64,000 bases of DNA from Candidatus Moraniibacteriota bacterium. GTDB lineage: Bacteria; Patescibacteriota; Minisyncoccia; Moranbacterales; UBA1568. The position numbers and the translations under genes were made by a program. Below are positions 28,903-59,151 of the stretch, piece after piece. The DNA lies in assembly GCA_037133435.1 (NCBI GenBank), contig JBAXOD010000004.1:90-64089 (forward strand), read 5' to 3'. Positions within the stretch are counted from its first letter, which is position 1; each line of letters opens with the position of its first letter. The notes under the pieces were generated by a model, which did not search any database, was not told the DNA's origin, and saw nothing but the letters and a program-made list of their open reading frames with translations.

Positions 28903-28924
28903 AGAATGACCAATAATCAAAGCG

Positions 28925-30731: not shown

Positions 30732-30744
30732 ATGGATGCGATTA

Positions 30745-31686
30745 CTACGAGTTGATTGTCTCTCGTATCGAATAGTTCATTCTCCCGCGCTGCCGATAGT
30801 AGGTCTTCACCGAGATGTCGACGAGGATGCCGAAGACGAAAAGCTGCACGCCGACGAGGATGAGCAACGTTCCCACGAGCGGCCAGATGCGTTCCGAAAG
30901 CGATGCCCCGAAGAAAACCTTGTCGAGGAACATCCAGAACAGTATGGCCAGGCCGAGCATGACGGACACGATACCCGTCCCTCCGAAAAGATGGAGCGAA
31001 CGGTACGAGTATTTCCTCCAGAACCACAGGAACACCATGTCGACGAATCCCTTGATGCCCCGTTTCCAATTATATTTCGTCTTGCCGTGGACGCGCGGGT
31101 GATGCGATACCTTCACCTCGGTCACGCGGAATCCGTCGAGCAGCAGGAGAGCCGGAATGAATCGGTGCATCTCCCCGAACAGATCGACGCCGTCGAAGCA
31201 TTCCCGTCGGAACGCTTTCAGGCTGCATCCGGAATCATGGATACCGTCCTTGATGAGCAGTCCGCGCAGCACGTTCGCCGTCCGCGAAAAGAATTTCTTC
31301 ATGAAAGAATCCTTGCGCTTGTGCCGCCAACCGGACACGACGTCGTATCCCGCTTCGATCTGTTCGATAAGCGCGGCGAAATCCGCCGGATCGTTTTGCA
31401 GGTCGCCGTCCATCGTGATGATGATATCCCCGGTCGCGGCCTTGATGGCGGCATCGAACGCGGCCGTCTGCCCGAAATTCTTGCGGAAGCACACGAGCCG
31501 GAGCGGCGACAGTCCTTCGCAATCCGCGACCGTCTTGTCCGTCGAACCGTCATCGACGAAGATGATCTCGTACGGTTTCCCCATCCTGTCGAGCGACTCC
31601 TTGATCCGTCGATGCTGCTCCCTGACGTTCCCCTCCTCGTTGTAGAGCGGCACCACCACCGACACATACGGCCTTGATCCGTCCAT
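30745..31686 (-). CDS. GT2 glycosyltransferase (polyprenol-phosphate hexosyltransferase, GtrB/DPM1-like) with 2 C-terminal TM helices.
   Basis: YVSVVVPLYNEEGN... IITMDGDLQNDP. Confidence 0.8.
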   Translation of the reverse strand: MDGSRPYVSVVVPLYNEEGNVREQHRRIKESLDRMGKPYEIIFVDDGSTDKTVADCEGLSPLRLVCFRKNFGQTAAFDAAIKAATGDIIITMDGDLQNDPADFAALIEQIEAGYDVVSGWRHKRKDSFMKKFFSRTANVLRGLLIKDGIHDSGCSLKAFRRECFDGVDLFGEMHRFIPALLLLDGFRVTEVKVSHHPRVHGKTKYNWKRGIKGFVDMVFLWFWRKYSYRSLHLFGGTGIVSVMLGLAILFWMFLDKVFFGASLSERIWPLVGTLLILVGVQLFVFGILVDISVKTYYRQRGRMNYSIRETINS

Positions 31687-31796
31687 AAGGCGAAAACATG
31701 AATGGTATACTCGTATTCTAGCGACAAAAACGCTTCCTGGCAAACCTCAAGCGTAAGAAAAAAGCCCCGTCTTGAGGCTTTTCGACGGAAGCTGAT

Positions 31797-33811: not shown

Positions 33812-34771
33812 TCAGGTCCGGTAATATTCCCGGTACCACGAGACGAACTTCGCGATGCCGTCGTCGATATGGGTCGTGGGCGCCCAACCGAGCGCACGCA
33901 GTTTCGAGATATCCGCGACCGTACGGGTCACGTCACCTGGTTGCATCGGGAGCATTCGCTTCTCGACAATCTTGCCGGCGTGTTTTTCGACCGCCCCGAT
34001 ATAATCCGAAAGCGCCTCATCCCGGTCACCACCGATATTCATGACGCTGCCCGGCGGTAAATCGGCATCGAGCGTGACAAGCGTCCCGGATACGATGTCG
34101 TCGATATAGGTGAAGTTTCGTCGCATATTCCCACCGTTGTAGAGATCGATCGGTTTCCCCTCGATGATATTTCGTACGAATGTGAACACACCCATGTCCG
34201 GCCGTCCCCACGGACCGTACACCGTGAAGAATCGTAGTCCGGTCGTTTTCAGTCCATGCACGTGCCCATAGACGTCGGCAAGGAGTTCCGTCGCCTTCTT
34301 CGTCGCGGCATAGACCGATACCGGATGTTCGACCGGGTCGGATTCGGAAAACGGCACCTTGGCATTCTCTCCGTAGACCGAGGAAGAAGATGCATACACG
34401 AAATGCTTCGTACCGTACTTCCGGGCGCATTCGAGTATGTTAAGTGTCCCCATCACGTTCACATCGGCATACAGTTCGGGCCGTTCGAGCGAATACCGTA
34501 CCCCGGCCATCGCCGCCAGATGAACGATCTTTTCCGGGCGTTCCTTCTCAAAAACGGTATCAAGAAACGCCTTGTCACGGATGTCTCCTTCATACAAGCG
34601 GAACTTCCCCTCATATCCGGCGAGAAATATCGAAATCCGGTCGCGCTTGAGCTGCGGATCGTAGTAATCGTTGAAATTGTCGATGAGTATCGGCGTATCG
34701 CCGCGCTCCATCAAAGCCTTGGCCACCGCCGACCCGATGAATCCCGCCCCGCCGGTCACGAGTATGTTCAT
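33812..34771 (-). CDS. NAD-dependent epimerase, UDP-glucuronate 4-epimerase-like.
   Basis: MNILVTGGAGFIGSAVAKAL... YASSSSVYG... YAATKKATELLADVY. Adjacent to ugd. Confidence 0.8.
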   Translation of the reverse strand: MNILVTGGAGFIGSAVAKALMERGDTPILIDNFNDYYDPQLKRDRISIFLAGYEGKFRLYEGDIRDKAFLDTVFEKERPEKIVHLAAMAGVRYSLERPELYADVNVMGTLNILECARKYGTKHFVYASSSSVYGENAKVPFSESDPVEHPVSVYAATKKATELLADVYGHVHGLKTTGLRFFTVYGPWGRPDMGVFTFVRNIIEGKPIDLYNGGNMRRNFTYIDDIVSGTLVTLDADLPPGSVMNIGGDRDEALSDYIGAVEKHAGKIVEKRMLPMQPGDVTRTVADISKLRALGWAPTTHIDDGIAKFVSWYREYYRT

Positions 34772-35294: not shown

Positions 35295-35323
35295 TTGACA
35301 AGTATGTTATCATGGTGTATAAT
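35295..35323 (+). promoter_or_regulatory. Consensus sigma70 promoter (TTGACA, 17 nt spacer, TATAAT).
   Basis: ttgacaagtatgttatcatggtgtataat. Confidence 0.55.
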
Positions 35324-35379
35324 ACATTTTACAAAGTGATAGTAGTGATAGTCGGCCAAAAAATTTATCAGGGGAAAAT

Positions 35380-35538
35380 ATGGACAAGCTGTTTTCAAAT
35401 TTCGAATGGTATCGTCGTTGGACACGGGATAACTGGGTCCTTATTGATACCGGCAAAGTCACAACGTGGCTCCGCGGCAATTCCGCAAAGATAGTGCGGA
35501 CACACAGCTATACATTCGTCCGTAGGGACGCAGAGTAA
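35380..35538 (+). CDS. Small ORF (52 aa), basic, with an AGGGGA RBS. Not in the track (under 60 aa).
   Basis: MDKLFSNFEWYRRWTRDNWVLIDTGKVTTWLRGNSAKIVRTHSYTFVRRDAE. It sits between a consensus promoter and a terminator. Confidence 0.4.
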   Translation: MDKLFSNFEWYRRWTRDNWVLIDTGKVTTWLRGNSAKIVRTHSYTFVRRDAE

Positions 35539-35558
35539 CTGTGATACCACCGCCTTTT

Positions 35559-35596
35559 GACCTTCACGAAATGAAATCGTGGAGGTCGTTTTTTTA
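35559..35596 (+). terminator. Intrinsic terminator.
   Basis: gaccttcacgaaatgaaatcgtggaggtcgttttttta (10-bp stem with one G.U pair, then a T-run). Confidence 0.65.
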
Positions 35597-36070
35597 TGTC
35601 TCGATAACTTTGACACCTTTCGGGAGGTCAGAGAAAGTCACTTCGATGACTTCAATCGGATGAACCGTTTCCGGACTCCTGCAATCCATTCCCCTGAAAT
35701 CACCAAATTTTCTTTTGTCCAAAACATATACATAACCGATTTTGTCTTTCGCCCGCTCCATCAATATTTGGCCGGCCGTAAAATGTAATTGATCATGATC
35801 ATCTATTCCCGTCTTATTCTCGAATTCCTTGCCATGTATCAATGACCTGAAAATGGCGCAATCGGCGTACGTGCTCGCGAAAACCGCCGGTTCGCCATCG
35901 TTCTCATGTCGACCCGTCTCCTCATCATAGCCACAAGCCTGATGCGGTTCCAAAGCCTCGACACGTTCGTACGAACCATGAAAGACATATTTTCCTTCTT
36001 TTTCCAAGGACAACAGTCGTTCGCGTGCGGCACTTATCTGTTCCTTATTGTTCGGCTGATCGAAATTCAT
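35594..36070 (-). CDS. Hypothetical protein (158 aa) in an AT-richer islet.
   Basis: ORF with protein-like composition and no recognisable family. Confidence 0.4.
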   Translation of the reverse strand: MNFDQPNNKEQISAARERLLSLEKEGKYVFHGSYERVEALEPHQACGYDEETGRHENDGEPAVFASTYADCAIFRSLIHGKEFENKTGIDDHDQLHFTAGQILMERAKDKIGYVYVLDKRKFGDFRGMDCRSPETVHPIEVIEVTFSDLPKGVKVIET

Positions 36071-36337: not shown

Positions 36338-37534
36338 CTATCTGACTCGTGCTATCGCTTCTTTCAGATATTCCACATATTCCCTGTCATCGGCGTCCGT
36401 CGTCACGTACTTGGAAAGAGCGGTTTTTCGAGCCTGCTCACCGATGCGTTTCCGAAGATCGGGATCGGTGATGAGACGTTCGAGCTTCTCCTCCCACTGC
36501 GCTTCGTCTGCGGCCACGAACCCGTCCACACCGTCCGTGATCGCCTCGCGGAAGGTCCGCGTGACGCAAGCGACCGTCGGCACCCCGAGAATGCCCGCCT
36601 CGAAGAATTTCAGTTCCGACTTCCCCTCGCAGAACGGATTGCCGATCTCAAGTGGCGCGATGATGATATCCGACTGGGAAATGTTTTCGAAATGTCTTTG
36701 ACGCGGGACATAATGCATCCGCTCGATCCGGCCAGAAAACACCTCGAACCGGTCATCGATCGTGAGCGGTCCGACGAGCAACAACCGCAACCGCGGATAT
36801 TTTTCCAGAAGATGCAACATCGCCCCGGTGATCGTCCCGAAGTCCTTGTCATGCCCGAGTGAACCGCTGAAATAACCGATCGTCACCGTATCGCGCGCTC
36901 CCGACGCGAGTCGCGCCATGCGCTCCTCGTAAAGCGGGGCTACGGTTTTCACGTCCGACTCGGGAAGTCGGTTCGGGATCACGAAGACGCGTTTCCCTTT
37001 CGTGCGGAGTTCGTCGGCGATGAACGAAGTCGAGGTCGTCGCCACCTTCACGTACGGATCGGCCAGGATCTCGCCGCCGACGCCGTTCTCGTAGAGTTTT
37101 CGTTCCATGGAGTTCATCAGGCGCCAGTAATCCATATGCTTGAGGAACGCCGGATCATGTACGAGGTCATCGGTCTCGAAGATGATCTCTTTTCCTTGTT
37201 TCTTGATCAGGGCGATAAGCTTCGCGACCGACGGCGTGAAGAGAACGCGATGAAAGACGAAGACCGAAAATTTGCCCGCATACGAAGAAAGGCGGGGGTT
37301 GTCCTGCACCGTCACGGACGAGGTGATGCCGCGAAAGCCGATCTCCTCGGCCACATGCTTCGTCCGGAACCGGGCGCTGTCCCCCACCCCGCCGGTGACA
37401 AACAGCACGTCCGCCGGACGCACGCGCCCGAACAGTGCGAGTCCCGCCGGGATGATCCGTTTCATCCCATGGACAAAACCTTCCCGCTTCAGGGTCTGCC
37501 ACGCCTTCCCGATCTTGATCGATAGCAGTCTCAT
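36338..37534 (-). CDS. GT4-fold (group 1) glycosyltransferase.
   Basis: 398 aa. C-terminal GT-B domain with CEGKSELKFFEAGILGVPTVA. Confidence 0.7.
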   Translation of the reverse strand: MRLLSIKIGKAWQTLKREGFVHGMKRIIPAGLALFGRVRPADVLFVTGGVGDSARFRTKHVAEEIGFRGITSSVTVQDNPRLSSYAGKFSVFVFHRVLFTPSVAKLIALIKKQGKEIIFETDDLVHDPAFLKHMDYWRLMNSMERKLYENGVGGEILADPYVKVATTSTSFIADELRTKGKRVFVIPNRLPESDVKTVAPLYEERMARLASGARDTVTIGYFSGSLGHDKDFGTITGAMLHLLEKYPRLRLLLVGPLTIDDRFEVFSGRIERMHYVPRQRHFENISQSDIIIAPLEIGNPFCEGKSELKFFEAGILGVPTVACVTRTFREAITDGVDGFVAADEAQWEEKLERLITDPDLRKRIGEQARKTALSKYVTTDADDREYVEYLKEAIARVR

Positions 37535-37606: not shown

Positions 37607-38824
37607 TCATTCGGCTTCTTTCAAAATATTCCTATAGATTTTTTCAAGCTTTTCCCCCGTCTTGTCCCAGGTGAAATCGTGCGACCGGAGCCGGTTGGCC
37701 CGTCCGATATCGTCCCATGATGCCCGTTTTCCGGCAAGCGAGACAATGGCGTCGGAAAGCGATTCAGGCGTATTCGTGACCGCATACACGCCCCCGTCAC
37801 CGAGATAGTTCCGATTGTTTTGCGTATCGAAACAGACGACCGGAAGTCCGGCTCCCATATACTGCAGCATCTTGCCGCTCGCCTGACCCGTATCCTCGTG
37901 TTTCGGGTCAATCGCGAAATCACCGATACCGAGAATGTCGCCGATCGTGAAATATGGGAGAGGAGAAACGACCGTCACCCGATCAGTCACGCCGTATTTC
38001 GAAAGAAGCGCCTCAAGCTGGTCCTTGGGAAATCCCGCAAGCACGAAACGGAGATCCGTCACGTTCGCAAGCGACGAAGGAATCGAACCGACGAGCGCCT
38101 CCACGCCCTTGTTCGGCAGAAACGATCCGGTATAAACGGCAACCGTCGCGTCTTGCGGGATACCATACCGTTCCCGAATGCCCGATCGGATATCCGGAGA
38201 AAGCTTTGGAAGGTCCCGGGCGCCGTCAAGTGCCGTTTCCACCGGCCCCTTTTTTCGTATCTGCGAGATCTCGTCCGCGCTCGCCCACGAACTCGCCACG
38301 GCCGCATCGCCGAGATCATTGAGCCATGCCTCGACCGACCGGAAAATCCGACGAAGCAGACCACCCCGAAGATAGGCGTGGGAAGCCATCTCTCTCGTCA
38401 GACTGCCCTGGAAGTCCGCCACGAGTTTCGGGCGCTGCCCATGGAGACGCAGAAGCAGGATCGCCACCCACGCGATCGCCACGCCCTCGTGGATATGCGC
38501 GTGTATGATATCGGGCCTGAATTCGCGCGACACGGTATACGTCTTGCGGATGAGCAGCACGTCGAGGACGAGTTTCTGCCAATCCGGTCCGGCTTCGAGT
38601 TTGCGGTACCAGAACAGCAGGCGGCGGATACGCCGAACCTCGATGCCGGGATTCTCGGGTTCGGGAATATCGCGGCCGATGTGATAGGTCACGATCTTCA
38701 CCTCGTGACCGAGATGAACCAGGGCCCGCGCTTCCTCCAGGATACGGATATGCATCCCCCGATCCGCGAAGAACGGGGTCGGGGCCACCATGAGCACTTT
38801 TAGATGCTGCCGCGATTCGGTCAT
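37607..38824 (-). CDS. GT4 glycosyltransferase.
   Basis: LKVLMVAPTPFFADRGMHIRILEE... GQASGKMLQYMGAGLPVV. Confidence 0.75.
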   Translation of the reverse strand: MTESRQHLKVLMVAPTPFFADRGMHIRILEEARALVHLGHEVKIVTYHIGRDIPEPENPGIEVRRIRRLLFWYRKLEAGPDWQKLVLDVLLIRKTYTVSREFRPDIIHAHIHEGVAIAWVAILLLRLHGQRPKLVADFQGSLTREMASHAYLRGGLLRRIFRSVEAWLNDLGDAAVASSWASADEISQIRKKGPVETALDGARDLPKLSPDIRSGIRERYGIPQDATVAVYTGSFLPNKGVEALVGSIPSSLANVTDLRFVLAGFPKDQLEALLSKYGVTDRVTVVSPLPYFTIGDILGIGDFAIDPKHEDTGQASGKMLQYMGAGLPVVCFDTQNNRNYLGDGGVYAVTNTPESLSDAIVSLAGKRASWDDIGRANRLRSHDFTWDKTGEKLEKIYRNILKEAE

Positions 38825-38867
38825 TTCGGTATGTTCAACAGCCAATCACCCGTATCATCCATATTCA

Positions 38868-41333
38868 TCAACCGAGATCCGCCTCGGAAATCGTGACGGT
38901 CCCCCGTTCGGCCACTTCTCCCGAGATCACTTTCCGCACGATCACGTCCTCGATGTGATCCTCGATATACCGGTTGATGGAACGCGCCCCGAATACCGGC
39001 TCATATCCGCGGGCGACTACGGCGGCGGCGAGACCCGGCGCGAATTCGATACCGATGTTCTTCTGCTTGCGGATCCGCGCCGCGAGCGCGGCCAGCTTGT
39101 TGTCCACGACCTGGCACAATTCCCCTCCCTCAAGCGGGGCGAAACAGATGATGCCGTCGAATCGGTTCAAGAATTCCGTACGGAAAATCCCCGTCGCCGC
39201 GATATCTGCCAAGATCCGCTGCCGCATCACCTCTTGCGTCGCCCCTTCCGTGACGAGCTGCGCGATGAGACCGGAACTCGCGTTCGACGTCGCGATGATG
39301 ATCGACTTGCGGAAATTGATCTTCTTGCCGAACCCGTCGGTCACGAATCCCTCGTCGAGGATCTGCAGGAAGATATCGAGTACCTTCGGATACGCCTTCT
39401 CGATCTCGTCGAGCAACACGACCGAGAACGGGTGCTCCTTCATGATATTTGACAAGCGACCCTCCTCGCCGGTGATGCCCGATCCGAGCATGTGCTCGGC
39501 TGCATCGGACGATTGGAATTCGCTCATGTCGAGCCGGACCATCCGGTTCTCGTCCCCGAAATATGCCTCGGCGAGCGCCTTGGCCGTCTCGGTCTTGCCG
39601 ACGCCGGTCGGTCCGAGAAACAGGAAGGATCCGAGCGGACGATTCGGATTGCCGAAACCGGCCCGGGCACGACGAAGCGATTCGGATACCTGCCGGACAG
39701 CCTCGTCTTGTCCCACAACTCGATAATGCAGGATCTCCTCGAGCTTGAGCAGGCGCTCCTTCTCGCTGTCCCCGAGCGTGCCGATCGGAACGCCGGTCTT
39801 GATCGATACGTACGTGGCGACGGACTTTTGCGTGATGTACGGCCCGTCCGGATCCATCTGCCAGTTGCGAAGCGTCTGCGCCGCGAGATCGATCGCCTTT
39901 TCCGGATACGGGATATCCCATTCGTACTGTCCGGAATATTCGACGATGGACTGGAGCGCCTTCCAGGAATAGAGGACCCCGACACGCTCCTCCGGCCCGA
40001 GCACGTCGAGCATGATGCGGACCGTATCGTCCGATCCGGGTTCCCGGAGATAGACCGCCTCGAAGAATTTGAGCGTGGGTTCGTCGTCATGGGCGAGCGA
40101 ATGATACCCGGCGGTACCCATCATGCCGATGACCCGAAACGATGACAACGGGAGGAATTCCGCGAATACCCCGGACAGGTCGATCCGCCCCGCCTTGCCG
40201 CTCAAATACATGTCGAGGTTGTCGATCACGAGCACGACATTGCCCGCGTTGGTCGCCTCGTAGAACAGGGAACGGACGAAGTTGGCCGGATCCTCCCCGC
40301 GGTTTCCGGCATCGCCGACCGCGACCGAAAGATCGAACGAGACGAATCGGAGCTGTTCGAAGCCCGGCAGATCCCCTTCCCGGATCTTTCGCGCGAGCGC
40401 ATGCACGAAGGTCTTCTTGCCGATTCCGGCATCGCCGACCAGGATGAGGCTGTTCTGCCCGGGACGGCCGAGGAGCAACGTCGTGATACGGAGTTCGTCG
40501 TCGCGACCGAAGAGGTGCAGCTTCGAATACTCGGAATAATCCTCGTGCGAGATGTCCACGGAATAGCGGTCGAGGTGGACGGTGAATCCGAATTGCCACC
40601 CGCGACCGATAGGAACGGTCTTCCGAAGGTTCTCCCACAAGAGCGGTTGCCGACGTTTCGCGTTGCGTTCCGCGGCGAGCGCCTCATAGGTGACGATCGC
40701 TTCGAAATCATCGACACTCATATTGAGTTCCGCCAGCCGATCATTGAACGACTCGTCGGTCTTCCAATCCCGCGCATGGAAATCCGCAGGAGCGATGCCG
40801 AGCCGCCCAAGCACGCGCGGGAACCATCTCATCTTGAATAACTGACTGCGGTCACGCGGGAGAAACACCTTCGGCTGACGGGAAAAGAACGCCACGAGCT
40901 GTGACAGCAATACGACGAACGCGAAGAGGAGGAACAGCCATTCCGCCCTGCCGACATTTCCGAAGGGCGTCCTGACCACGAACCAGAAGAGGACCGGCAA
41001 AGATGCGAGCCAGAAGAGGATGTAGACGACACCGAAAACGGCCAAGAAAGCGATGGATGCGACTCCGGCGACCAGCACGAAACTGCGGACGATCACTCCC
41101 ATGAACCGCGAGAAGATATTCATCGCGAAACGGTTGAGTGTTTTCGGTATATCGAGTCCGAGCCAATCCTTCGGTGAACTGTCACGTTTCCACGGCGCGA
41201 AAAATGTCGGGATAAGATCGCGGAAATTGAACAGGTGCACGAAATACCTGAAGAGTGTCTCCCACGACGAAACGAGGGCGAAAAACCCTTCGAAATACAT
41301 CCACAACAAGAAAGAGAACGGGAACATAGACAA
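38868..41333 (-). CDS. ClpA/ClpB-family double-AAA+ ATPase with an N-terminal polytopic membrane domain in place of the Clp N-domain.
   Basis: AAA-1 is GRDDELRITTLLLGRPGQNSLILVGDAGIGKKT. AAA-2 is LFLGPTGVGKTETAKALAEAYFGDENRMVRLDMSEF... VVLLDEIEKAYPKVLDIFLQILDEG. The first ~230 aa have 4-5 TM helices. Confidence 0.7.
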   Translation of the reverse strand: MSMFPFSFLLWMYFEGFFALVSSWETLFRYFVHLFNFRDLIPTFFAPWKRDSSPKDWLGLDIPKTLNRFAMNIFSRFMGVIVRSFVLVAGVASIAFLAVFGVVYILFWLASLPVLFWFVVRTPFGNVGRAEWLFLLFAFVVLLSQLVAFFSRQPKVFLPRDRSQLFKMRWFPRVLGRLGIAPADFHARDWKTDESFNDRLAELNMSVDDFEAIVTYEALAAERNAKRRQPLLWENLRKTVPIGRGWQFGFTVHLDRYSVDISHEDYSEYSKLHLFGRDDELRITTLLLGRPGQNSLILVGDAGIGKKTFVHALARKIREGDLPGFEQLRFVSFDLSVAVGDAGNRGEDPANFVRSLFYEATNAGNVVLVIDNLDMYLSGKAGRIDLSGVFAEFLPLSSFRVIGMMGTAGYHSLAHDDEPTLKFFEAVYLREPGSDDTVRIMLDVLGPEERVGVLYSWKALQSIVEYSGQYEWDIPYPEKAIDLAAQTLRNWQMDPDGPYITQKSVATYVSIKTGVPIGTLGDSEKERLLKLEEILHYRVVGQDEAVRQVSESLRRARAGFGNPNRPLGSFLFLGPTGVGKTETAKALAEAYFGDENRMVRLDMSEFQSSDAAEHMLGSGITGEEGRLSNIMKEHPFSVVLLDEIEKAYPKVLDIFLQILDEGFVTDGFGKKINFRKSIIIATSNASSGLIAQLVTEGATQEVMRQRILADIAATGIFRTEFLNRFDGIICFAPLEGGELCQVVDNKLAALAARIRKQKNIGIEFAPGLAAAVVARGYEPVFGARSINRYIEDHIEDVIVRKVISGEVAERGTVTISEADLG

Positions 41334-41452
41334 CCTTTGACGTCGTCACATCGGGCGCGACGTTTCTCCCTTTATTTTACCCGTGAAGGTCACCTTTTGC
41401 AAACCGGGTCACCGATTTTGAACTGACCGGACCTTTCAGGTATACTGTCAAT

Positions 41453-43225
41453 ATGAAACATGATACTTCCGCAGCCGACAACGAATGGCGTTTCTTGTAC
41501 GCGATGGCAGGAATCGTCGCATTCGGATTGTTCTCATACGGTGCGACCGTCACCGGGATTCTCTTTCTTCCGGTCGCGCTCATCTTCGCTCTTCCCGTCT
41601 TCGTCCTCACGCTCACTTTTCTTTTTCGATGGTTGCTCGTAGAAACCGTTCCGACCCGTATCATAGTCGCGATCGCGATATTCCTTCCGATAGTTCTCCT
41701 CCCCTTCGCCGAGCCGACGATTTTTTCAGGCCGTGACCAGGGTGCTATCGCGGAAGCCGCGATCGAGCTCTCTGACAACGGCTCACTCCATTTCGGCGGA
41801 CCGGCCATACGGACCTTTTTCAGTATGTACGGACCGGGGAAAGCGCTGAACTTCCCGGGTTTCTTCTACACCGATCAGGGCGAACTCTCGACGCAGTTCC
41901 CCATCGGCTCGATCGCGTTCCATGGCGCATTCGTTTCCCTCTTCGGCACGAACGGACTCCTTGTCGGAAACGGGGTCCTGCTCTTCGCGTCTCTGCTCAT
42001 GGTTTTCATGATTGTTCGTTTTCTCGCCGACGAATGGTATGCCACAGGTGCTTTCCTTGCCGCGGCCGTATCGTTTCTTCCTCTCTGGTTCGCGAAATCC
42101 GCGCTTTCCGAAAACCTCTCGCTCTTTCTCTTCCTGTTCCTCTCGTATTCCCTGGTACGGTTCCTTCGCAAGCCCGACGCTCTTTTGTTTTTATTCTCGC
42201 TCGCCTCGGCGATACTGCTTTCGGCGACCCGTATGGAAGGCCTCTTCTCGCTTGCCGTCACGGTCGTCCTCCTCTTCCTCACCACTCCGGAAAAAACGTT
42301 CTCCTCAAAGAATCCGTTTCTCTTCCGCGTCCTTCCGTTACTCGTCATATCTGTCATGCTGTTTGTGAACGTATTTTCCGCGATGCCGGCCTTCCGGAGC
42401 ATCGGCAAGGCCATCTTGCAAAGCCAGATCATATCGGGGTCCGCCACCGCAGCGACCGGTATCTCGGCCACGATATCACTGTGGACACTCTTCGTTCCCT
42501 ACGGACTGTTCCTCCCGTTCTCTCTCGGCCTTGTCGGCATCGCGATATTGTTCTTTCGGAAACGATTCATCGAGCTCGTCCCGGCGGCGCTTGCCCTCCC
42601 GGCATTCATTTTTTTCCTCTATCCGAATATCACCCCGGATCATCCATGGATGCTGAGACGGTACCTTTTCTCATTGTGGCCGACGCTTTTCATCGCGTTT
42701 CCGGTCGCGCTCCGATCCGTTTTAACATCACGAAAGGCACACGCTGCCCAAATGTCGGGAAAAGCGATACCGACCGCCATCTTCGCGGTCGTCATCCTCT
42801 GGTCGCTTCCCGCGACCATCTCCACATTCGCCTTCTCGGACGATCACGGGCTGGCCGATGAAACGGCATCGCTTTCGGAACACATCGGGGACCGCGATCT
42901 CGTCTTGGTCGACCGCGCCGCGACCGGTGATCCGTACGCCATGCCCGCCGGACCGCTCCGATTCCTCTCCCACAAGAATGCCGCCTACTTTTTCAATCCT
43001 TCGGATTATGAGAAGATACGAAAAGACGATTACGATCATATCTTTCTGCTCGCCCCGGCGGATTCCGCTCTTTTATGGGAAAAGCAGAACGTAAGCCTGA
43101 TTCCCGTCACGAAAACCGTCTTTTCCTTCGACCGACTCGAACGGTTGCCTCTTCGGGACCCACGATTCCCCACCCGGGAAACCGTCTCACAGGAAGCGCT
43201 ACTGTTCGAACTCAAGCCCCTATGA
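41453..43225 (+). CDS. Polytopic membrane protein, possible GT-C-type glycosyltransferase.
   Basis: 590 aa with more than 10 TM helices plus a C-terminal soluble domain. No diagnostic motif. Confidence 0.3.
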   Translation: MKHDTSAADNEWRFLYAMAGIVAFGLFSYGATVTGILFLPVALIFALPVFVLTLTFLFRWLLVETVPTRIIVAIAIFLPIVLLPFAEPTIFSGRDQGAIAEAAIELSDNGSLHFGGPAIRTFFSMYGPGKALNFPGFFYTDQGELSTQFPIGSIAFHGAFVSLFGTNGLLVGNGVLLFASLLMVFMIVRFLADEWYATGAFLAAAVSFLPLWFAKSALSENLSLFLFLFLSYSLVRFLRKPDALLFLFSLASAILLSATRMEGLFSLAVTVVLLFLTTPEKTFSSKNPFLFRVLPLLVISVMLFVNVFSAMPAFRSIGKAILQSQIISGSATAATGISATISLWTLFVPYGLFLPFSLGLVGIAILFFRKRFIELVPAALALPAFIFFLYPNITPDHPWMLRRYLFSLWPTLFIAFPVALRSVLTSRKAHAAQMSGKAIPTAIFAVVILWSLPATISTFAFSDDHGLADETASLSEHIGDRDLVLVDRAATGDPYAMPAGPLRFLSHKNAAYFFNPSDYEKIRKDDYDHIFLLAPADSALLWEKQNVSLIPVTKTVFSFDRLERLPLRDPRFPTRETVSQEALLFELKPL

Positions 43226-44379
43226 TCCTCTTCGATGCCGCCACCGTCCTGCCAGAAAAGATCCGGATCCGATTCCGATGGTTTCAGGTCGTCTTGGTAC
43301 TGGTCTTCCTCTTCGCCGCCTTCATGTCGGGATACGCCCTCCTGTTCCCGTTCCAGAATTTCTCGTTCAACTTCTCGAATCCGGACACCGCCAAAAACAC
43401 GCTCGAAGATCCGGTCGGACCGGACCTGACGAGTCTCAAAAAAGGACGGGTGAAGGCCGGCGAAACGCTCCGCACCTATGCCGGCACCACGGCGAGTTTC
43501 TCGTCGGTCCGGGTCGATCTCGCGCTGGAAAAGGATTCGCCGCTCCCCGATATGATCACGGTCTCGCTGCGCCGCTCATTCCGCTCGTTTTTCCTGCCCG
43601 CCGGCAAACCGCTCGACAGCGCACCGGATCAACGCGTCCTGGCCGTTGACGGTTCCCCGTACCTGTTCTCGCAGCAATCACTCTCCCCGTTCATAAGCGA
43701 CACGGCCGCCCTTTCCTGGGCGCCGAAGGAAAAAGTCCTTCCGGGAAAGAACGACATCCTTACGATTTTCCCTCCGCAGGATACGCTCGTGGGATTCCGT
43801 CATGGGACACTCGTTTCCGACGCACAGGGCGTGTATGCGATCGGTGGCGACGACAAGGCCCATCCGATCGGCAATACGACCGTCTTCGAATCGCTCGGTT
43901 TTCATTGGAACGATGTGCGCCCGGTCAGCGAGGAAGAACTCGGTTTGCACAAGAGGGGGAAGATAATCCTCTTCGACGCCGCACAGCCGGACGGAACGGT
44001 GTTCCTCGACCGTGCCACGAAGCAGTATTATGTCATCGACTCGGGAACCAAAGCCCCTATCGTGAACAAGGACCGGCTCGATACGCTTCTGGGTGTCACG
44101 ACCCCGATAGAGGCTACGAGCGATACGTTCCGACGCCCCGTGAAGTGTGTCCTGAATAAAAACATCCTTCCCTTCGGACGCACCTATTCCTGCGATATCC
44201 CGATCGAGTCGCTTCGTAACCTGCCCGGAGGCAGCTTCGAACTCTCGCTCGATTCGGTGCGCGACTTGCATCTGGCCGATCTTTCCCTCAGTTTCCACAC
44301 GAGTCCGGACTGGCAGAATTTCTCCCTGTTCCTCACCCAGCTGAAAGAGCGGTTTCTCGCCGTCTATGGCAAAAAATAA
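43222..44379 (+). CDS. Membrane-anchored hypothetical protein (N-terminal TM helix plus ~350-aa extracytoplasmic domain).
   Basis: Start taken at MILFDAATVLPEK... giving an ATGA overlap with the upstream gene. Confidence 0.4.
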   Translation: MILFDAATVLPEKIRIRFRWFQVVLVLVFLFAAFMSGYALLFPFQNFSFNFSNPDTAKNTLEDPVGPDLTSLKKGRVKAGETLRTYAGTTASFSSVRVDLALEKDSPLPDMITVSLRRSFRSFFLPAGKPLDSAPDQRVLAVDGSPYLFSQQSLSPFISDTAALSWAPKEKVLPGKNDILTIFPPQDTLVGFRHGTLVSDAQGVYAIGGDDKAHPIGNTTVFESLGFHWNDVRPVSEEELGLHKRGKIILFDAAQPDGTVFLDRATKQYYVIDSGTKAPIVNKDRLDTLLGVTTPIEATSDTFRRPVKCVLNKNILPFGRTYSCDIPIESLRNLPGGSFELSLDSVRDLHLADLSLSFHTSPDWQNFSLFLTQLKERFLAVYGKK

Positions 44380-44382
44380 CCT

Positions 44383-44844
44383 ATGAACCGGCAGAAAAAG
44401 ACCATTCGGAAGCGATTCAGCACGATCCGTTCGACCGGAGCCGTTTTCGTGAAAAATTCACGGGAATGGATCGTATCGATGTTCCCTTTTTCCTATGCCG
44501 CTCTCCTCGACATCATCGAACTGTCGCTGTTCGCATTCGCCCTCATCATCACCGCCGAGGCCGTCCTCCCCGGCATCATCTCGCTCCGATTGAACCTGGC
44601 GAAGCCGTTTTTCGTCATCCTCATCCTGATCGCGCTTTCGGGACTCATCGGCCGGAAAATCGGCGCCTCGTTCCCGTTCGTTCCCGACAAGAAAAGCCCG
44701 GTCACATGGATCGGTATCTCGTGGCTTGCGTTCCTGCTCACCCTGTCTTCGATCAAGTTCTCTCCGTTTCTCGTACCGATCATCGTCGGCGCGTTCTTCC
44801 TCATCATCCGTCTCTTTTGGAAACTGCTCTTCCGCAAGGGATAA
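44383..44844 (+). CDS. Small integral membrane protein.
   Basis: 153 aa, 4 TM helices. Confidence 0.4.
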   Translation: MNRQKKTIRKRFSTIRSTGAVFVKNSREWIVSMFPFSYAALLDIIELSLFAFALIITAEAVLPGIISLRLNLAKPFFVILILIALSGLIGRKIGASFPFVPDKKSPVTWIGISWLAFLLTLSSIKFSPFLVPIIVGAFFLIIRLFWKLLFRKG

Positions 44845-46197: not shown

Positions 46198-48645
46198 CTA
46201 TTTCCGACCGCCACGATTAATCACGTTTTTCACCAGTTCCTTTTCCGTATCAGTCGCGATCCGCACCTTCCCTCCTCGGGCGACCGTCATACATTCCCCG
46301 TTCATCCGCTCCTCGGAAGTCCGTTTCAAATGCTCGATGTTCGTCTTCAATCCGGCGAGTTCTTCGGTGAAAAGGAATTTCAAATTTTTGATCGGGATTC
46401 CGAAACGCGCCGAGAGCTCCTTGAGCACGTTCCCATACTCGTAACAGAGCTGATATTCGAGCATCTTCCGTTCATCCGTCCAAATCGCCATCGTACGGAG
46501 TATCGTGATCCACTGTTTCGCTTTTCTGTCGGCAAGATACTGTTTTGCGAGATATTCCGATCGTTGTCTTGTATCGTGTTCATGCCGATTCATCGCCTCC
46601 AGCCTCTCGGGTATCGTTTTCCGACGGACGCGATTCTCATTGATCCGATCGGCGAAATATTCCTCATCCAAGACACTGGGGCCATCGTATCCGAATGGGA
46701 TCCAGTAATATCGCCGTACAAGTCGTCTCACAGCGGCATTAACATTTGGATCATGATCAAGTGACACTTCGAGGATTTCCCGTTCCATCCGAGTAGGATG
46801 GTTCTCCTGCTCTGGTAAAGACAGCGCGTCCAGATCTTCCGCAGGAATCCCAAGTGCGGTCGAAACCCGTTTCACGAATGGTTCCTTGGCGACAAACCTG
46901 TAAAAGACGCTCGCCGCGTCATATCGCATGAAGAGGTCTCGCACTCTCTCCGCAAGTCCGAAGAGATCGCGATCACTTGTCACTTCGAGATCCCGTTTTT
47001 CCATTTCAGCCAGAAAAGAAAGGACTTCCTTTTTCGCCTCTTCGGTCGATCGGGCGATCTGCTCATAAAAACCGTTCTCTGAAAACAGTCTTTCCGCGAC
47101 GAGAGCCCCGACTTCTTCCCAATCCTTCTCGGGAATGACGACATTCATTTTCCCTTCTGAAAAGAAATTGTACTCGACCGGAAAGGTTTTTCCGTACAGC
47201 TCAGAAACGAGCGGGCTCGTCTGGATCAACGCGTTCCAATAGATCGGTGCGAGGTCGTATTCCCCGGTCATCGGCACGACGAATTTCTTGTCCGTTCCTT
47301 CTTTGGTAGCATGCTCCCGTTCCGAAAGTTTTCGCACTATCCCCTGGTCGGCATCGACTTCGACCAGATCTCCATCCTTGAGTATTCGTGTGGCATTTTG
47401 GGTACCGATGATACATGGGATTCCCAGCTCGCGCGATACGATCGCGGCATGACATGTCACGCTTCCCTCGTTGGTGACGATGGCCGCCGCCTTCCTGAGG
47501 ATAGGAGCGTATTCCGGACGGGTCATAGAGGCGACCAAAATATCCCCTTCCTCCACCTTGTCAAAATCATCCCTCCCCATGACGACACGTACCGGACCAG
47601 ATGCCCGGCCTTTGGAAGCGGTCACTCCCGAAAGACTGTCATTGAACGCCGATGTCGACAGTTTCTCCCACTCTTCCTCGGTGATGTCCGTAAATCCGGT
47701 TTCATGCGATGTCCGAATGAGACGTTCACCGGGATACTCCGACAAGTGACCGCTCTTCTTCTGCCGTTCGAATTCGTCCGGCGAGAGCATGACCGCCTGC
47801 TCATACCTGATACCGTAAATGTCGCATTCCCGTTTCAGATACCGGCAATACAGTACGTTGAAGAGCATATTGCATCGTTTCCGTTCATCACGGATATGCG
47901 TCGCGAAACCGATCCATTCGGGCATCGTTTCCGGCCGTCCGATCTCACCCGGCTCATCGACAGTACCGCCTTCCATCAATCCGGAAAGCCGATCGGTAAA
48001 ATAGGCCAGTCCCGTGGGATGGTATCCTTTGTAGTCGCTCAAGATGAACGAATACAGTGCGGCGTGATCCCGAAGCTTTTCATCTTTTTCGACGCCGTCA
48101 TCCATTCGGGCGATCTGCCGCAATTCCCGCTCTTCCCGTGCGATGAACGATTCGCCGGGAATTTTTACGTCGCTCAAATCTATATGATGTTCCGATACGT
48201 ACGATTCGAACGCCACGTCCATGACATATGCCACCCCGATGACCCATGGGAACAGTTCTGCATATTCATCGTAGAATTCCGACTTTTCGGGAATTCGGTC
48301 GTACAAAACTTCCGCGTAGTTTATCTCCTGCAATCGGTCCGCGAGCGGCGCGATGGAGGAATACTGCCGATAGAGCGTCTCGGTGAATTCGACATCCCCC
48401 TCCTCGAGCAGTCGTATGAAGTGCATTCCGTAATCAATGAGAGACTCCTTTGGAATGATGACCTCACTGTTCCCCTCGTAGCGATACCGGATATACCAGG
48501 GTCCGCACAGGTAGGAATCATTGTATCTGAGAAGCGACGACGCCCCGCCGTGAAAAAAATTGGTGATCGGGTACATCGGCAAATTGACATGAAAAAAATC
48601 ATGTTCCGTCCGGCGTGACGACAGGGAATCCTTTTCCGAAGCCAT
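46198..48645 (-). CDS. Tandem fusion of two paralog units: [N-domain + PEP-utilizers swivel domain] followed by a second N-domain whose swivel domain is deleted or frameshifted.
   Basis: Swivel domain GSVTCHAAIVSRELGIPCIIGTQNATRILKDGDLVEVDADQGIV lies mid-protein. A possible internal second start is MTGEYDLAPIYWN. The C-terminus ends ARGGKVRIATD..., just where a swivel domain should begin. Start taken at MASEKDSL... Confidence 0.55.
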   Translation of the reverse strand: MASEKDSLSSRRTEHDFFHVNLPMYPITNFFHGGASSLLRYNDSYLCGPWYIRYRYEGNSEVIIPKESLIDYGMHFIRLLEEGDVEFTETLYRQYSSIAPLADRLQEINYAEVLYDRIPEKSEFYDEYAELFPWVIGVAYVMDVAFESYVSEHHIDLSDVKIPGESFIAREERELRQIARMDDGVEKDEKLRDHAALYSFILSDYKGYHPTGLAYFTDRLSGLMEGGTVDEPGEIGRPETMPEWIGFATHIRDERKRCNMLFNVLYCRYLKRECDIYGIRYEQAVMLSPDEFERQKKSGHLSEYPGERLIRTSHETGFTDITEEEWEKLSTSAFNDSLSGVTASKGRASGPVRVVMGRDDFDKVEEGDILVASMTRPEYAPILRKAAAIVTNEGSVTCHAAIVSRELGIPCIIGTQNATRILKDGDLVEVDADQGIVRKLSEREHATKEGTDKKFVVPMTGEYDLAPIYWNALIQTSPLVSELYGKTFPVEYNFFSEGKMNVVIPEKDWEEVGALVAERLFSENGFYEQIARSTEEAKKEVLSFLAEMEKRDLEVTSDRDLFGLAERVRDLFMRYDAASVFYRFVAKEPFVKRVSTALGIPAEDLDALSLPEQENHPTRMEREILEVSLDHDPNVNAAVRRLVRRYYWIPFGYDGPSVLDEEYFADRINENRVRRKTIPERLEAMNRHEHDTRQRSEYLAKQYLADRKAKQWITILRTMAIWTDERKMLEYQLCYEYGNVLKELSARFGIPIKNLKFLFTEELAGLKTNIEHLKRTSEERMNGECMTVARGGKVRIATDTEKELVKNVINRGGRK

Positions 48646-48784
48646 AGACGTGAATATTAACGCTATGAGAAACCTACCGACAGTATACGGCCATATATAT
48701 CCCGTCGGCAAGCTCCAACAGACCATCAGGACACGAAAAACGGCCCGGGAAATCCGAGTAGCTATCGTCGTTGAATTGTGATCG

Positions 48785-59110: not shown

Positions 59111-59151
59111 AAGGATATATCGAAAAAATATGATCGGGCGACGGAAGACGA

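What the first reader, a model, noticed from the sequence alone, without database searches (positions are those of the whole stretch)
38868..41333. ClpA/B-type double-AAA+ unfoldase with an N-terminal integral-membrane domain, embedded in a glycosyltransferase cluster
Both AAA modules are canonical (Walker A GDAGIGKKT and GPTGVGKTE, sensor and arginine-finger regions present). The usual Clp N-domain is replaced by about 230 aa containing 4-5 TM helices. The gene sits directly between GT4 transferase genes and a GT-C-like membrane protein. A membrane-tethered Clp/Hsp100-class machine is unusual. It could extract or unfold envelope glycoproteins or pilins (a TrbC-like pilin is 5 kb away), or feed a membrane protease.
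Basis: partly seen in the sequence, partly recalled or inferred. Interest (0 to 1): 0.6.

Follow-up and report, generated by a model that had tools for sequence, protein, structure and literature searches.

The report
Membrane-anchored Clp-like ATPase, one ring dead
This is a real gene for a membrane-tethered relative of the ClpB/ClpC protein-remodelling machines. Only its second ATPase ring looks active, and both rings lack the usual substrate-gripping tyrosines. It is widespread in the tiny "CPR" bacteria, appears undescribed, and here sits in an operon with cell-envelope sugar-transfer enzymes.

Summary
The ORF 38868-41333 (-) is real and unbroken. It folds as a two-ring ClpB/ClpC-type ATPase behind an N-terminal membrane anchor. 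The fusion is collinear in 73 species-level Moraniibacteriota/Patescibacteria genomes.

- D1 is not canonical. The Walker A Thr/Ser, the Walker B Glu, the pore-loop Tyr and the Arg-finger pair are each lost in 0/73 to 7/73 retention.
- D2 is fully catalytic, but its pore loop is 4 residues shorter and lacks the Tyr.
- The anchor has two membrane spans (N-in, C-in), not 4-5.

There is no Clp_N domain, no M-domain and no ClpP-docking loop. Canonical ClpB and ClpC coexist in relatives.

New finding: the first ~124 aa form an independent module (NMOD). In other lineages NMOD is a separate ~130-aa gene, translationally coupled to a membrane-anchored Clp-like gene. The window protein is therefore a Rosetta-stone fusion.

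Context: the gene is divergent from a GT-C-fold transferase (≥50/64 loci) and co-oriented with GT4 genes (54/66 loci, often overlapping by 4 nt). A distant subclade lacks this context.

Best reading: a D2-driven, membrane-tethered remodeller with a non-aromatic pore, tied to envelope biogenesis. Its function is inferred, not shown.

The parts
38868..41333 (-). Whole gene: NMOD-TM-Clp fusion protein, 821 codons from TTG 41333. The probable start is ATG 41327, giving 819 aa.
41085..41333 (-). NMOD cytoplasmic head, residues 1-83. It comprises amphipathic helices 6-35 and 37-44, the invariant (S/A)PW(K/R)RD loop, and a juxtamembrane helix with invariant N72, R76, G79 and R83. It is basic, with about 11 K+R.
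40971..41084 (-). Membrane span 1, residues 84-121. A 37-39-aa hydrophobic helix of fixed length, with conserved G90 and P113. This is the C-terminal end of the NMOD module.
40881..40949 (-). Membrane span 2, residues 129-151. It follows a 6-9-residue uncharged external loop and returns the chain to the cytoplasm.
40518..40880 (-). Cytoplasmic helical linker, residues 152-272. It carries the family motifs FPRVLGRLG (R177) and GRGWxYG(Y/F)TVHLDRY (W246, T251, D255, Y257). A relation to Clp_N is not supported.
39849..40517 (-). D1, a degenerate AAA+ module (pseudo-ATPase). It may still bind nucleotide: G300, G303 and G305 are invariant and K306 is K or R.
40410..40436 (-). D1 Walker A, GDAGIGKKT. 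The Mg-coordinating Thr/Ser position is Lys here, and is Thr/Ser in 0 of 73 species.
40290..40316 (-). D1 pore loop, GDAGNRGED. It aligns with the canonical AGAKYRGE; the Tyr position is Asn. The loop is conserved and polar.
40215..40238 (-). D1 Walker B, VVLVIDNL. The catalytic Glu is replaced by Asn, and is Glu in 0 of 73 species.
38871..39848 (-). D2, the catalytically intact AAA+ module with its ClpB_D2-small domain. Motifs: Walker A GPTGVGKTE, Walker B LLDEIEK, sensor-1 N684, Arg finger R724, sensor-2 GAR.
39453..39488 (-). D2 pore loop, LGSGITGEEGRL. It is 4 residues shorter than the canonical GSPPGYVGxxxGGQL and variable across the family. The Tyr position is Gly or Asn.
41334..41452 (.). 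Divergent intergenic region with sigma-70-like hexamers facing both genes.
37607..38845 (-). GT4 glycosyltransferase (GT4_d1). It starts 22-45 nt after the Clp stop with no terminator between them. It is the conserved next gene in the operon.
36338..37534 (-). Second GT4-like glycosyltransferase (GT4_d2), a conserved operon member.
33812..34771 (-). NAD-dependent sugar epimerase/dehydratase (GalE-like SDR), conserved downstream.
41453..43225 (+). 590-aa polytopic membrane protein with a GT-C glycosyltransferase fold. It has an invariant GRDQG motif and is the conserved divergent neighbour.
43219..44379 (+). 386-aa protein with one N-terminal TM segment and no known family. It is the conserved partner of the GT-C gene, with a 7-nt overlap.
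44383..44844 (+). 153-aa small polytopic membrane protein with no known family, conserved after orf386.

Best explanation
What it is (shown):
- A specialised extra paralogue of the ClpB/ClpC (class-I Hsp100) ATPases, anchored in the cytoplasmic membrane by a two-span hairpin.
- Both its conserved N-terminal head (NMOD) and its two AAA+ modules face the cytoplasm.

How it most likely works (inferred by analogy with solved Hsp100 hexamers):
- It assembles as a hexameric double ring under the membrane.
- D1 keeps the glycine/lysine P-loop but has lost every hydrolysis residue. It probably serves only as a nucleotide-stabilised assembly ring, as NSF-D2 does.
- All mechanical work then comes from D2, whose Walker A/B, sensor-1, Arg finger and sensor-2 are invariant.
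- Neither ring has the aromatic pore-loop residue, so clients are not gripped in the canonical ClpB/ClpA way.
- The D1 loop is instead a conserved polar D-A-x-(N/S)-R-G-(E/D)-D motif.
- The conserved surfaces are the cytoplasmic NMOD head and the G-R-G-W-x-Y-G-Y-T motif on top of D1, not the membrane helices.

Proposed job (inferred from gene context):
- ATP-driven remodelling, meaning assembly, disassembly or extraction, of specific membrane-embedded clients from the cytoplasmic face.
- In Moraniibacteriota the clients would belong to the Und-P-sugar/GT-C envelope-glycosylation machinery with which the gene is co-transcribed.

What it is not:
- It is not a ClpP partner.
- It is not a DnaK-coupled disaggregase.
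For: - Identity and fold.
- D1 degenerate, D2 intact, and no pore-loop Tyr, across 26 homologues and 73 species. A split-type relative has lost the D1 P-loop altogether.
- No M-domain. No ClpP loop, with the segment fixed at 38 aa.
- Canonical ClpB (L057) and ClpC-like genes (L029, L043) coexist nearby, so this is an additional specialised paralogue.
- Topology is N-in, two spans, C-in.
- NMOD is an independent partner. There are 49 stand-alone 125-177-aa genes. In at least 27 loci NMOD is followed by a membrane-anchored Clp-like gene, with a -4 to +8 nt junction in 22 of the 26 measured junctions. The same pairing occurs in L007.
- The family is large and under constraint: 1657 representatives at 50% identity, 910 of them with E below 1e-10.
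- Operon context: the divergent GT-C gene is adjacent in at least 50 of 64 loci. GT4 genes lie downstream in 54 of 66 loci. In more than 10 species the Clp-GT4 junction is -3 to +4 nt. No terminator separates them in the window.
- GT-C fold of the neighbour. ArnC-like GT2, UGDH, SDR and DegT genes lie in the same island.
- The membrane helices are poorly conserved apart from G90 and P113. That fits an anchor rather than a channel.
Against: - No experiment exists. No client has been identified.
- The hexameric state and nucleotide binding by D1 are inferred from homology only.
- The GT neighbourhood could reflect vertical collinearity. A tRNA synthetase and an amino-acid kinase upstream are collinear too.
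- The GT context is absent in about 10 loci of a distant subclade, where the gene is next to pheS-pheT or ftsA-ftsZ. It is also absent in the split-type lineages, where serS and an FtsQ-like gene lie upstream.
- Without aromatic pore loops, any translocation-type remodelling is uncertain.
- Topology rests on hydropathy, charge bias and AF2. No dedicated TM predictor was run.
Confidence: 0.45

Rival explanations
1. General membrane-protein quality-control or housekeeping ATPase, for example divisome or envelope maintenance, with no specific link to glycosylation. On this view the GT neighbourhood in Moraniibacteriota is inherited gene order.
For: - Flanking housekeeping genes (tRNA synthetase, AA_kinase) are collinear as well.
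- In other subclades the gene sits next to pheST/leuS or between ftsA-ftsZ and nrdR-comEC.
- Split-type homologues follow serS and an FtsQ-like POTRA protein.
Against: - Junctions of 4-nt overlap or 2-4 nt with GT4_d1 in more than 10 species suggest translational coupling rather than mere proximity.
- The divergent GT-C gene shares a 119-bp promoter region with this gene.
Confidence: 0.25
2. Non-threading, Torsin-like nucleotide switch. The ring does not move a substrate through a pore. Instead it uses ATP-dependent oligomerisation changes to activate or gate a membrane partner, with NMOD as the cofactor or partner interface.
For: - Pore-loop aromatics are lost in both rings, and the D2 loop is variable.
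- Torsins are also Clp-D2-like, membrane-associated and lack aromatic pore-loop residues (review PMC5425593, found).
- There is an obligatory small membrane partner, NMOD.
Against: - Torsins lack their own Arg finger. This family keeps it, along with sensor-2, in 72-73 of 73 species, and retains a complete second ring plus the D2-small domain.
- The D1 pore loop is conserved, which suggests the pore still matters.
Confidence: 0.15
3. One reading: a classical processive unfoldase or dislocase. It would extract envelope glycoproteins or pilins from the membrane and thread them, possibly into a partner protease.
For: - ClpB/ClpC fold, an active D2 and a membrane anchor.
- Precedents of membrane-anchored AAA+ extractors such as FtsH and Msp1 (own knowledge; PMC7018516 listed).
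- A weak pilin-like ORF lies 5 kb away.
Against: - No aromatic pore-loop residue at the canonical position in either ring in 73 of 73 species.
- No ClpP-docking loop.
- No protease gene in the conserved cluster.
- The pilin match is below threshold.
Confidence: 0.1
4. A motor for a non-protein cargo. The polar pore and ATPase ring would help move or release lipid-linked glycan or polymer intermediates made by the adjacent GT4 and GT-C enzymes.
For: - Tight operon linkage with GT4 genes and the GT-C gene.
- The D1 pore loop is conserved, polar and charged rather than aromatic.
Against: - No AAA+ precedent for glycan or lipid cargo.
- The membrane helices carry no conserved polar residues that could line a conduit.
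- The external loop is only 6-9 residues.
- The GT linkage is not universal.
Confidence: 0.04

Closest known systems
ClpB/Hsp104 disaggregases (class-I Clp/Hsp100)
   Same: - Two AAA+ modules plus a D2-small domain.
- The best sequence and fold matches: T. thermophilus ClpB gives 351 bits and D2 is about 45% identical. Foldseek TM is about 0.75.
- No ClpP-docking loop, as in ClpB.
   Different: - No Clp_N domain and no coiled-coil M-domain.
- D1 is catalytically dead.
- No pore-loop tyrosines.
- Membrane-anchored, with an NMOD head.
- All NCBIfam scores are far below the equivalog cutoffs: 397 against 1232.
ClpA/ClpC (ClpP-coupled unfoldases)
   Same: - The ClpA model aligns collinearly from D1 to the C-terminus without an M-domain gap.
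- ClpC chains are the top Foldseek hits.
   Different: - Lacks the IGL/VGF ClpP-binding loop. The segment has ClpB length.
- Lacks the N-domain, D1 catalysis and the pore Tyr.
- Genuine ClpC-like genes with an LGF loop coexist in related genomes.
Torsins (ER-membrane-associated, Clp-D2-like AAA+)
   Same: - Related to the Hsp100 D2 lineage.
- Membrane-associated.
- No aromatic pore loop.
- Works with small membrane-protein partners (own knowledge; review PMC5425593).
   Different: - Torsins have a single ring, lack their own Arg finger and sit in the ER lumen.
- This protein has two rings and keeps its own Arg finger and sensor-2.
- It is bacterial and faces the cytoplasm.
NSF, p97, Pex1/Pex6 (double-ring AAA+ with one inactive ring)
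   Same: One ring does the work while the other is a nucleotide-binding or structural ring (own knowledge; papers listed).
   Different: - They belong to a different AAA+ clade (classical rather than HCLR/Clp).
- They are soluble, and their active rings keep aromatic pore loops.
FtsH, Msp1 and Bcs1 (membrane-anchored AAA+ machines)
   Same: An N-terminal TM anchor places a ring-forming ATPase under the membrane (own knowledge; PMC7949044, PMC7018516 and PMC10567702 listed).
   Different: - They have a single AAA module of the classical clade.
- FtsH carries a protease domain.
- FtsH and Msp1 keep aromatic pore loops.
- None has an NMOD-like partner.

Membership tests
Class-I Clp/Hsp100 (ClpA/ClpB/ClpC superfamily) | Two tandem AAA+ modules (D1, D2) with the ClpB_D2-small C-terminal domain | tested here: met
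   Pfam AAA_2 at 8.8e-40 and ClpB_D2-small at 3e-17. The ClpA HMM is collinear over residues 253-816. The AF2 model matches ClpC/ClpB chains in Foldseek with TM about 0.75.
Class-I Clp/Hsp100 (ClpA/ClpB/ClpC superfamily) | Clp_N (double Clp repeat) N-terminal domain | tested here: not met
   No PF02861 hit. hhalign of the linker against a Clp_N profile gives 7% probability.
Class-I Clp/Hsp100 (ClpA/ClpB/ClpC superfamily) | Catalytically competent D1 (Walker A GK[T/S], Walker B DE, Arg fingers) | tested here: not met
   In 73 species, 0 have Thr/Ser at the Walker A position and 0 have the Walker B Glu. The RR finger pair is replaced by K then Y/F.
Class-I Clp/Hsp100 (ClpA/ClpB/ClpC superfamily) | Catalytically competent D2 | tested here: met
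   GPTGVGKTE, LLDEIEK, TSN, R724 and GAR are conserved in 72-73 of 73 species.
Class-I Clp/Hsp100 (ClpA/ClpB/ClpC superfamily) | Aromatic pore-loop-1 residue in D1 (KYR) and D2 (GYVG) | tested here: not met
   The D1 Tyr position is N/S/A. The D2 loop is 4 residues shorter and its Tyr position is G/N. Any aromatic residue in these loops occurs in only 3 of 73 (D1) and 5 of 73 (D2) species.
ClpB/Hsp104 disaggregase | Coiled-coil M-domain inserted in the D1 small subdomain (the DnaK/Hsp70 coupling site) | tested here: not met
   The alignment to T. thermophilus ClpB jumps from ClpB residue 390 to 520, while the query runs from 489 to 499. The NCBIfam ClpB score is 397 against a cutoff of 1232.
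ClpA/ClpC/ClpE (ClpP-coupled) | [ILV]G[FL] ClpP-docking loop inserted between D2 sensor-1 and the Arg finger | tested here: not met
   The segment is a fixed 38 aa with no insertion. The motif is absent in 72 of 73 species.
ClpV/TssH (type VI secretion) | Membership score on the TssH model and a T6SS gene context | tested here: not met
   TIGR03345 scores 320 bits against a cutoff of 885. No T6SS genes are present in the window or in related loci.
Torsin-like AAA+ | Single D2-like ring that lacks its own Arg finger and depends on a cofactor to supply it | tested here: not met
   The protein has two rings. The Arg finger R724 is invariant.
NMOD-TM-Clp family (defined here; Patescibacteria) | NMOD head (W..Y, (S/A)PW(K/R)R, N..SR..G..VR) plus a long hydrophobic helix, either fused to or encoded immediately upstream of a membrane-anchored Clp-like ATPase carrying the G-x-x-W-x-[YF]-G-[YW]-T...L[DN].[YF] motif | tested here: met
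GT-C glycosyltransferases (the neighbouring gene, 41453-43225) | Polytopic GT-C fold | tested here: met
   The AF2 model has pLDDT 87 and pTM 0.90. The top 36 Foldseek PDB hits are all GT-C enzymes (ALG12 at 5e-8, ArnT at 1.6e-5, PglB/STT3 and others). PMT_2 is hit in 6 of 26 family members.
GT-C glycosyltransferases (the neighbouring gene, 41453-43225) | Use of a polyprenyl-phosphate-linked sugar donor and an identified acceptor | not testable with these tools
   Only context is available: an ArnC-like GT2 (3e-47, below cutoff), a UGDH, an SDR and a DegT gene in the same island.

The most novel reading that the evidence does not exclude
NMOD plus the membrane-anchored Clp paralogue would form a previously unrecognised class of bacterial membrane AAA+ machine. 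It would be specific to Patescibacteria/CPR and work without aromatic pore-loop threading, using a polar pore with a dedicated small membrane subunit. It would be a dedicated energy source for envelope biogenesis: assembling or recycling the Und-P-sugar/GT-C glycosylation apparatus, or handing its substrates across the membrane interface. This would be a role no Hsp100 is known to have.
Probability: 0.2. Interest if true: 0.85.

Novelty: new variant of a known kind. Interest (0 to 1): 0.62.

Why it matters
- Class-I Hsp100/Clp proteins are textbook soluble, tyrosine-gripping threading machines. This family is large (over 900 clusters at 50% identity) and conserved, yet membrane-tethered, runs on one ring and has discarded the gripping tyrosines. 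That challenges the assumption that the fold always works by aromatic pore-loop threading.
- It gives a natural bacterial counterpart to the poorly understood Torsin situation.
- CPR bacteria have tiny genomes. Keeping this paralogue alongside ClpB and ClpC implies an important, lineage-specific function at the envelope, which is the interface these episymbionts use to contact hosts.
- The split and fused NMOD forms provide a ready-made handle for identifying the complex.
- The tight operon with GT4/GT-C enzymes gives a testable hypothesis for an ATP requirement in envelope glycosylation.
- Public annotation currently calls these proteins 'ATP-dependent Clp protease ATP-binding subunit', which is probably misleading.

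Tried and rejected
- **Frameshift or merged-ORF artefact: rejected.** The window has a single frame, and the N-terminus-to-D1 junction is collinear in 26 homologues and 73 species. In other lineages NMOD really is a separate upstream gene.
- **Residual Clp_N domain in residues 155-245: not supported.** hhalign gives 7% probability. Pfam finds no Clp_N even in the longer relatives P0245, P0312 and P0327. My first impression from reading those sequences was therefore not confirmed.
- **Known family for NMOD or for the 386-aa and 153-aa neighbours: none.** Pfam up to E = 10 and NCBIfam find nothing.
- **Second NMOD or another Clp gene in the window: none**.
- **FtsQ-like protein near the Moraniibacteriota loci or in the window: none**.
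- **Sequence-profile search of the GT-C neighbour against PDB: no hit**. The fold search was needed.
- **Literature:** six full-text searches found no description of a membrane-anchored or D1-dead Clp in CPR. A TM7x transcriptome paper mentions only host clp genes and one 'predicted clp protease'.
- **Searches that could not run:** The first metagenome query alignment was too diverse.
- **Rfam and tRNA scans** of the low-GC gap at 34.7-36.4 kb, and of the whole window for tRNAs, found nothing.
Full report

Window 38868-41333 on the minus strand is one uninterrupted ORF of 821 codons. The listed start is TTG 41333. An ATG two codons later (41327) has an AAAGG 8 nt upstream and matches the start of the closest homologue, so 819 aa is more likely.

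Several results place the protein in the ClpA/ClpB/ClpC class:
- Pfam finds AAA_2 (residues 565-726, 8.8e-40) and ClpB_D2-small (737-815). In D1 it finds only weak generic P-loop hits, and no Clp_N.
- The NCBIfam ClpA model aligns collinearly over residues 253-816. All Clp models score far below their cutoffs, for example ClpB at 397 bits against 1232.
- Against PDB sequences, T. thermophilus ClpB matches D2 with 279 bits and D1 with only 72 bits.
- An AF2 model built on 26 homologues has pLDDT 83 and pTM 0.70.
- Foldseek matches ClpC and ClpB chains with TM about 0.75 over about 580 columns.

The gene, the double-AAA+ fold and both quoted P-loop strings are therefore real.

**2. What the motifs actually say**

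In the residue-by-residue alignment to ClpB, D1 differs at every catalytic motif:

| D1 motif | This protein | Canonical ClpB |
|---|---|---|
| Walker A | GDAGIGK-K-T | GEPGVGK-T-A |
| Walker B | VID-N-L | IDE-L |
| Pore loop | AG-N-RGE | AK-Y-RGE |
| Arg-finger pair | KFF | RRF |

The ~130-residue M-domain of ClpB is absent.

I aligned 73 species-level family members from GTDB genomes, with a canonical ClpB from a relative as reference. The D1 results are:
- The Walker A Thr/Ser position is never Thr or Ser (K47, R9, H7, Q5 and others).
- The Walker B Glu is never Glu (N38, H20, D12).
- The pore Tyr position is N, S or A.
- The glycines and lysine of the P-loop are kept.

D2 is the opposite. 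GPTGVGKTE, LLDEIEK, TSN, the Arg finger R724 and sensor-2 GAR are present in 72-73 of 73 sequences.

The D2 pore loop is nevertheless 4 residues shorter than the canonical GSPPGYVGxxxGG. It is variable, and it has Gly or Asn at the Tyr position. Any aromatic residue in the loop occurs in 5 of 73 sequences for D2 and 3 of 73 for D1.

The segment where ClpA and ClpC carry their ClpP-docking loop is a fixed 38 residues. It lacks an [ILVM]G[FLM] motif in 72 of 73 sequences.

This is a one-motor machine with a pseudo-ATPase D1 and no canonical substrate-gripping residues.

**3. The N-terminus**

Kyte-Doolittle hydropathy finds only two hydrophobic regions, residues 76-123 and 129-153. AF2 gives helices 6-35 and 37-44, a low-confidence loop at 49-58, one long helix at 62-124 and a helix at 129-150.

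Across the 73 sequences:
- Residues 1-83 carry about 11 K+R.
- The loop at 122-128 is 6-9 residues long and carries about 0.3 K+R.
- Residues 152-180 carry about 5 K+R.
- Hydrophobic segment 1 has a fixed length of 37-39 residues, and segment 2 about 21.

This supports an N-in, two-span, C-in topology, not 4-5 TM helices.

The conserved residues are not in the membrane, apart from G90 and P113. They lie in the cytoplasmic head (W..Y, (S/A)PW(K/R)RD, N72, R76, G79, R83) and in the linker (R177 in FPRVLGRLG; GRGWxYGYTVHLDRY). A relation of the linker to Clp_N is not supported, with an hhalign probability of 7%.

**4. The family, and an unexpected split form**

Full-length homologues of about 815-840 aa covering 99-100% of the query are all from Moranbacteria, Patescibacteria or Minisyncoccota MAGs. 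The window itself is from a Candidatus Moraniibacteriota MAG.

A profile of the N-terminal 272 aa finds 1657 representatives among 1.84 billion sequences, 910 of them below 1e-10. Most are 800-900 aa with the module at the N-terminus. Many hits, however, are proteins of about 113-135 aa that match only profile positions 5-121. These share the same invariant W, PW, G, N, R and G residues.

In metagenome contigs these short forms are genuine stop-to-stop ORFs: 49 of them, 125-177 aa long.
- In at least 27 loci the short ORF is followed on the same strand by a gene of about 806 aa. The junction is -4 to +8 nt in 22 of the 26 junctions that could be measured.
- That downstream gene has AAA_2 and ClpB_D2-small domains and its own two TM helices.
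- Its D1 P-loop is completely lost, its D2 is intact, and it has no pore Tyr.

The same pair occurs at the locus of P0048. There a 123-aa NMOD gene (hmmsearch 4e-21) overlaps the start of a 2-TM Clp-like gene by 4 nt.

The window protein is therefore a Rosetta-stone fusion of a small membrane protein (NMOD) with a membrane-anchored Clp paralogue. That argues the two parts work as one complex. The fusion is also topologically consistent: NMOD would be N-in and C-out, and the fused form keeps only the second Clp TM helix, running out to in.

Canonical ClpB occurs close to the TM-Clp gene in relatives. It has the N-domain, M-domain, KYR and GYVG (L057). ClpC-like genes with an LGF loop occur in L029 and L043. 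The TM-Clp is therefore an additional paralogue, not the lineage's only Hsp100.

**5. Genomic context**

In the window the gene is followed by a GT4 gene (37607-38845) after 22-45 nt with no terminator-like site. Then come a second GT4-like gene (36338-37534) and a GalE-like SDR (33812-34771).

Upstream, across 119 bp with promoter-like hexamers on both strands, three genes run divergently:
- a 590-aa polytopic protein (41453-43225);
- a 386-aa single-TM protein (43219-44379);
- a 153-aa membrane protein (44383-44844).

The 590-aa protein has no Pfam hit itself, but 6 of 26 family members hit PMT_2. Its AF2 model (pLDDT 87, pTM 0.90) matches only GT-C enzymes in its top 36 PDB hits: ALG12, ALG9, ArnT, PglB/STT3/AglB, DPY19, AftD, PMT and EmbB.

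The wider island, roughly 12-46 kb, also encodes a DegT aminotransferase, two further PMT_2 GT-C proteins, a UDP-glucose dehydrogenase, an ArnC-like GT2 (3e-47, below cutoff) and more GT4 genes. It looks like an Arn-like pathway of envelope glycosylation via Und-P-sugars and GT-C enzymes.

Across 79 loci from GTDB species representatives:
- The divergent GT-C gene is adjacent in at least 50 of 64 assessable loci.
- GT4_d1 or GT4_d2 lies downstream in 54 of 66.
- The Clp-GT4 junction is -3 to +4 nt in more than 10 species.

There are three caveats:
- Flanking housekeeping genes are collinear too.
- About 10 loci of a distant subclade have the gene before pheS-pheT-leuS/valS-lytB, or between ftsA-ftsZ and nrdR-comEC.
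- The split-type genes follow serS and an FtsQ-type POTRA protein.

The GT link is thus strong within Moraniibacteriota but not universal. The common theme is envelope and division loci.

**6. Mechanism**

Shown:
- Membrane anchoring is predicted.
- D1 has lost its hydrolysis residues.
- D2 is fully equipped.
- There are no aromatic pore loops, no ClpP loop and no M-domain.
- NMOD partnership is obligatory.
- The gene forms an operon with GT4 genes in this lineage.

Inferred:
- The protein forms a hexamer.
- D1 acts as a nucleotide-stabilised scaffold.
- D2 is the sole motor.
- It acts from the cytoplasmic face on membrane-embedded clients of the envelope-glycosylation machinery, through a polar pore and the NMOD collar.

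I give this reading about 0.45. The rivals are:
- a general membrane housekeeping ATPase whose GT synteny is simply inherited (0.25);
- a Torsin-like non-threading switch (0.15);
- a motor for glycan or lipid-linked cargo (0.04).

**7. Comparison and novelty**

The protein belongs to the class-I Hsp100 superfamily by fold and by D2. It fails the defining tests for ClpB (M-domain, N-domain, pore Tyr, active D1), for ClpA/ClpC (ClpP loop) and for ClpV (score and context). It resembles Torsins in being a membrane-associated D2-like ATPase without aromatic pore-loop residues. It resembles NSF and p97 in having one dead ring, but it is not a member of either group.

Six full-text literature searches found no description of such a protein. 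Public annotations call it 'ATP-dependent Clp protease ATP-binding subunit' or 'AAA family ATPase'.

I rate it a new variant of a known kind, with interest about 0.6. The anatomy is well supported and surprising for the Hsp100 field. The function is still only inferred from context.

Noticed in passing
L089-L168 (e.g. L133:273-662 and L133:664-3084); L007:7633-8004 and L007:8001-10409: In other Patescibacteria lineages the N-terminal module is a separate ~130-aa gene. It is translationally coupled, typically with a 4-nt overlap or a 1-4 nt gap, to an ~806-aa Clp-like gene. That gene has its own two TM helices and a D1 whose P-loop is completely lost. The conserved upstream genes are serS and an FtsQ-type POTRA protein. 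A PAP2 phosphatase is often 2-3 genes downstream.
   Followed up: partly
window 12045-13334, 16657-18453, 18543-20807, 27763-28920, 29406-31743: The Clp gene lies in a ~35-kb envelope-glycan island. The island holds a DegT/ArnB-like aminotransferase, two further PMT_2 (GT-C) membrane proteins, another GT4, a UDP-glucose dehydrogenase and an ArnC-like polyprenyl-phosphate glycosyltransferase. Together these resemble an Arn-type pathway (Und-P-aminosugar to GT-C).
   Followed up: partly
window 35295-35600 (+): A perfect sigma-70 consensus promoter (TTGACA-17-TATAAT, 12/12) lies at 35295-35323. It is followed by a GGGGA ribosome-binding site, a 52-aa ORF (35380-35538, MDKLFSNFEWYRRW...) and a strong 12-bp-stem terminator with a T-run (35558-35588). 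All of this sits in a low-GC gap inside the glycosylation operon. There is no Rfam or tRNA match. The adjacent 158-aa ORF (35594-36070, -) has no family.
   Followed up: partly
window 46198-48837, 49925-51463, 58058-59248 (all -): Three paralogous proteins (879, 512 and 396 aa) in which Pfam recognises only the ~70-aa PEP-utilizers mobile (swivelling phosphohistidine) domain. The rest of each protein is unassigned. A 724-aa counterpart is syntenic in L001.
   Followed up: no
It is conserved, together with the following 290-aa ORF, in the closest relatives (L001, L010, L013, L017-L019).
   Followed up: partly
L079 and L085 (e.g. L085:6976-14504): In one distant subclade the fused TM-Clp gene sits directly after ftsA-ftsZ and before nrdR and comEC. 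This is a cell-division context rather than a glycosylation one.
   Followed up: partly
L011, L020, L024 and many other loci (record titles): Many GTDB records carrying this Patescibacteria-type locus are titled 'uncultured Bdellovibrionales' or 'Pseudobdellovibrionaceae bacterium'. These are probably mislabelled bins.
   Followed up: no
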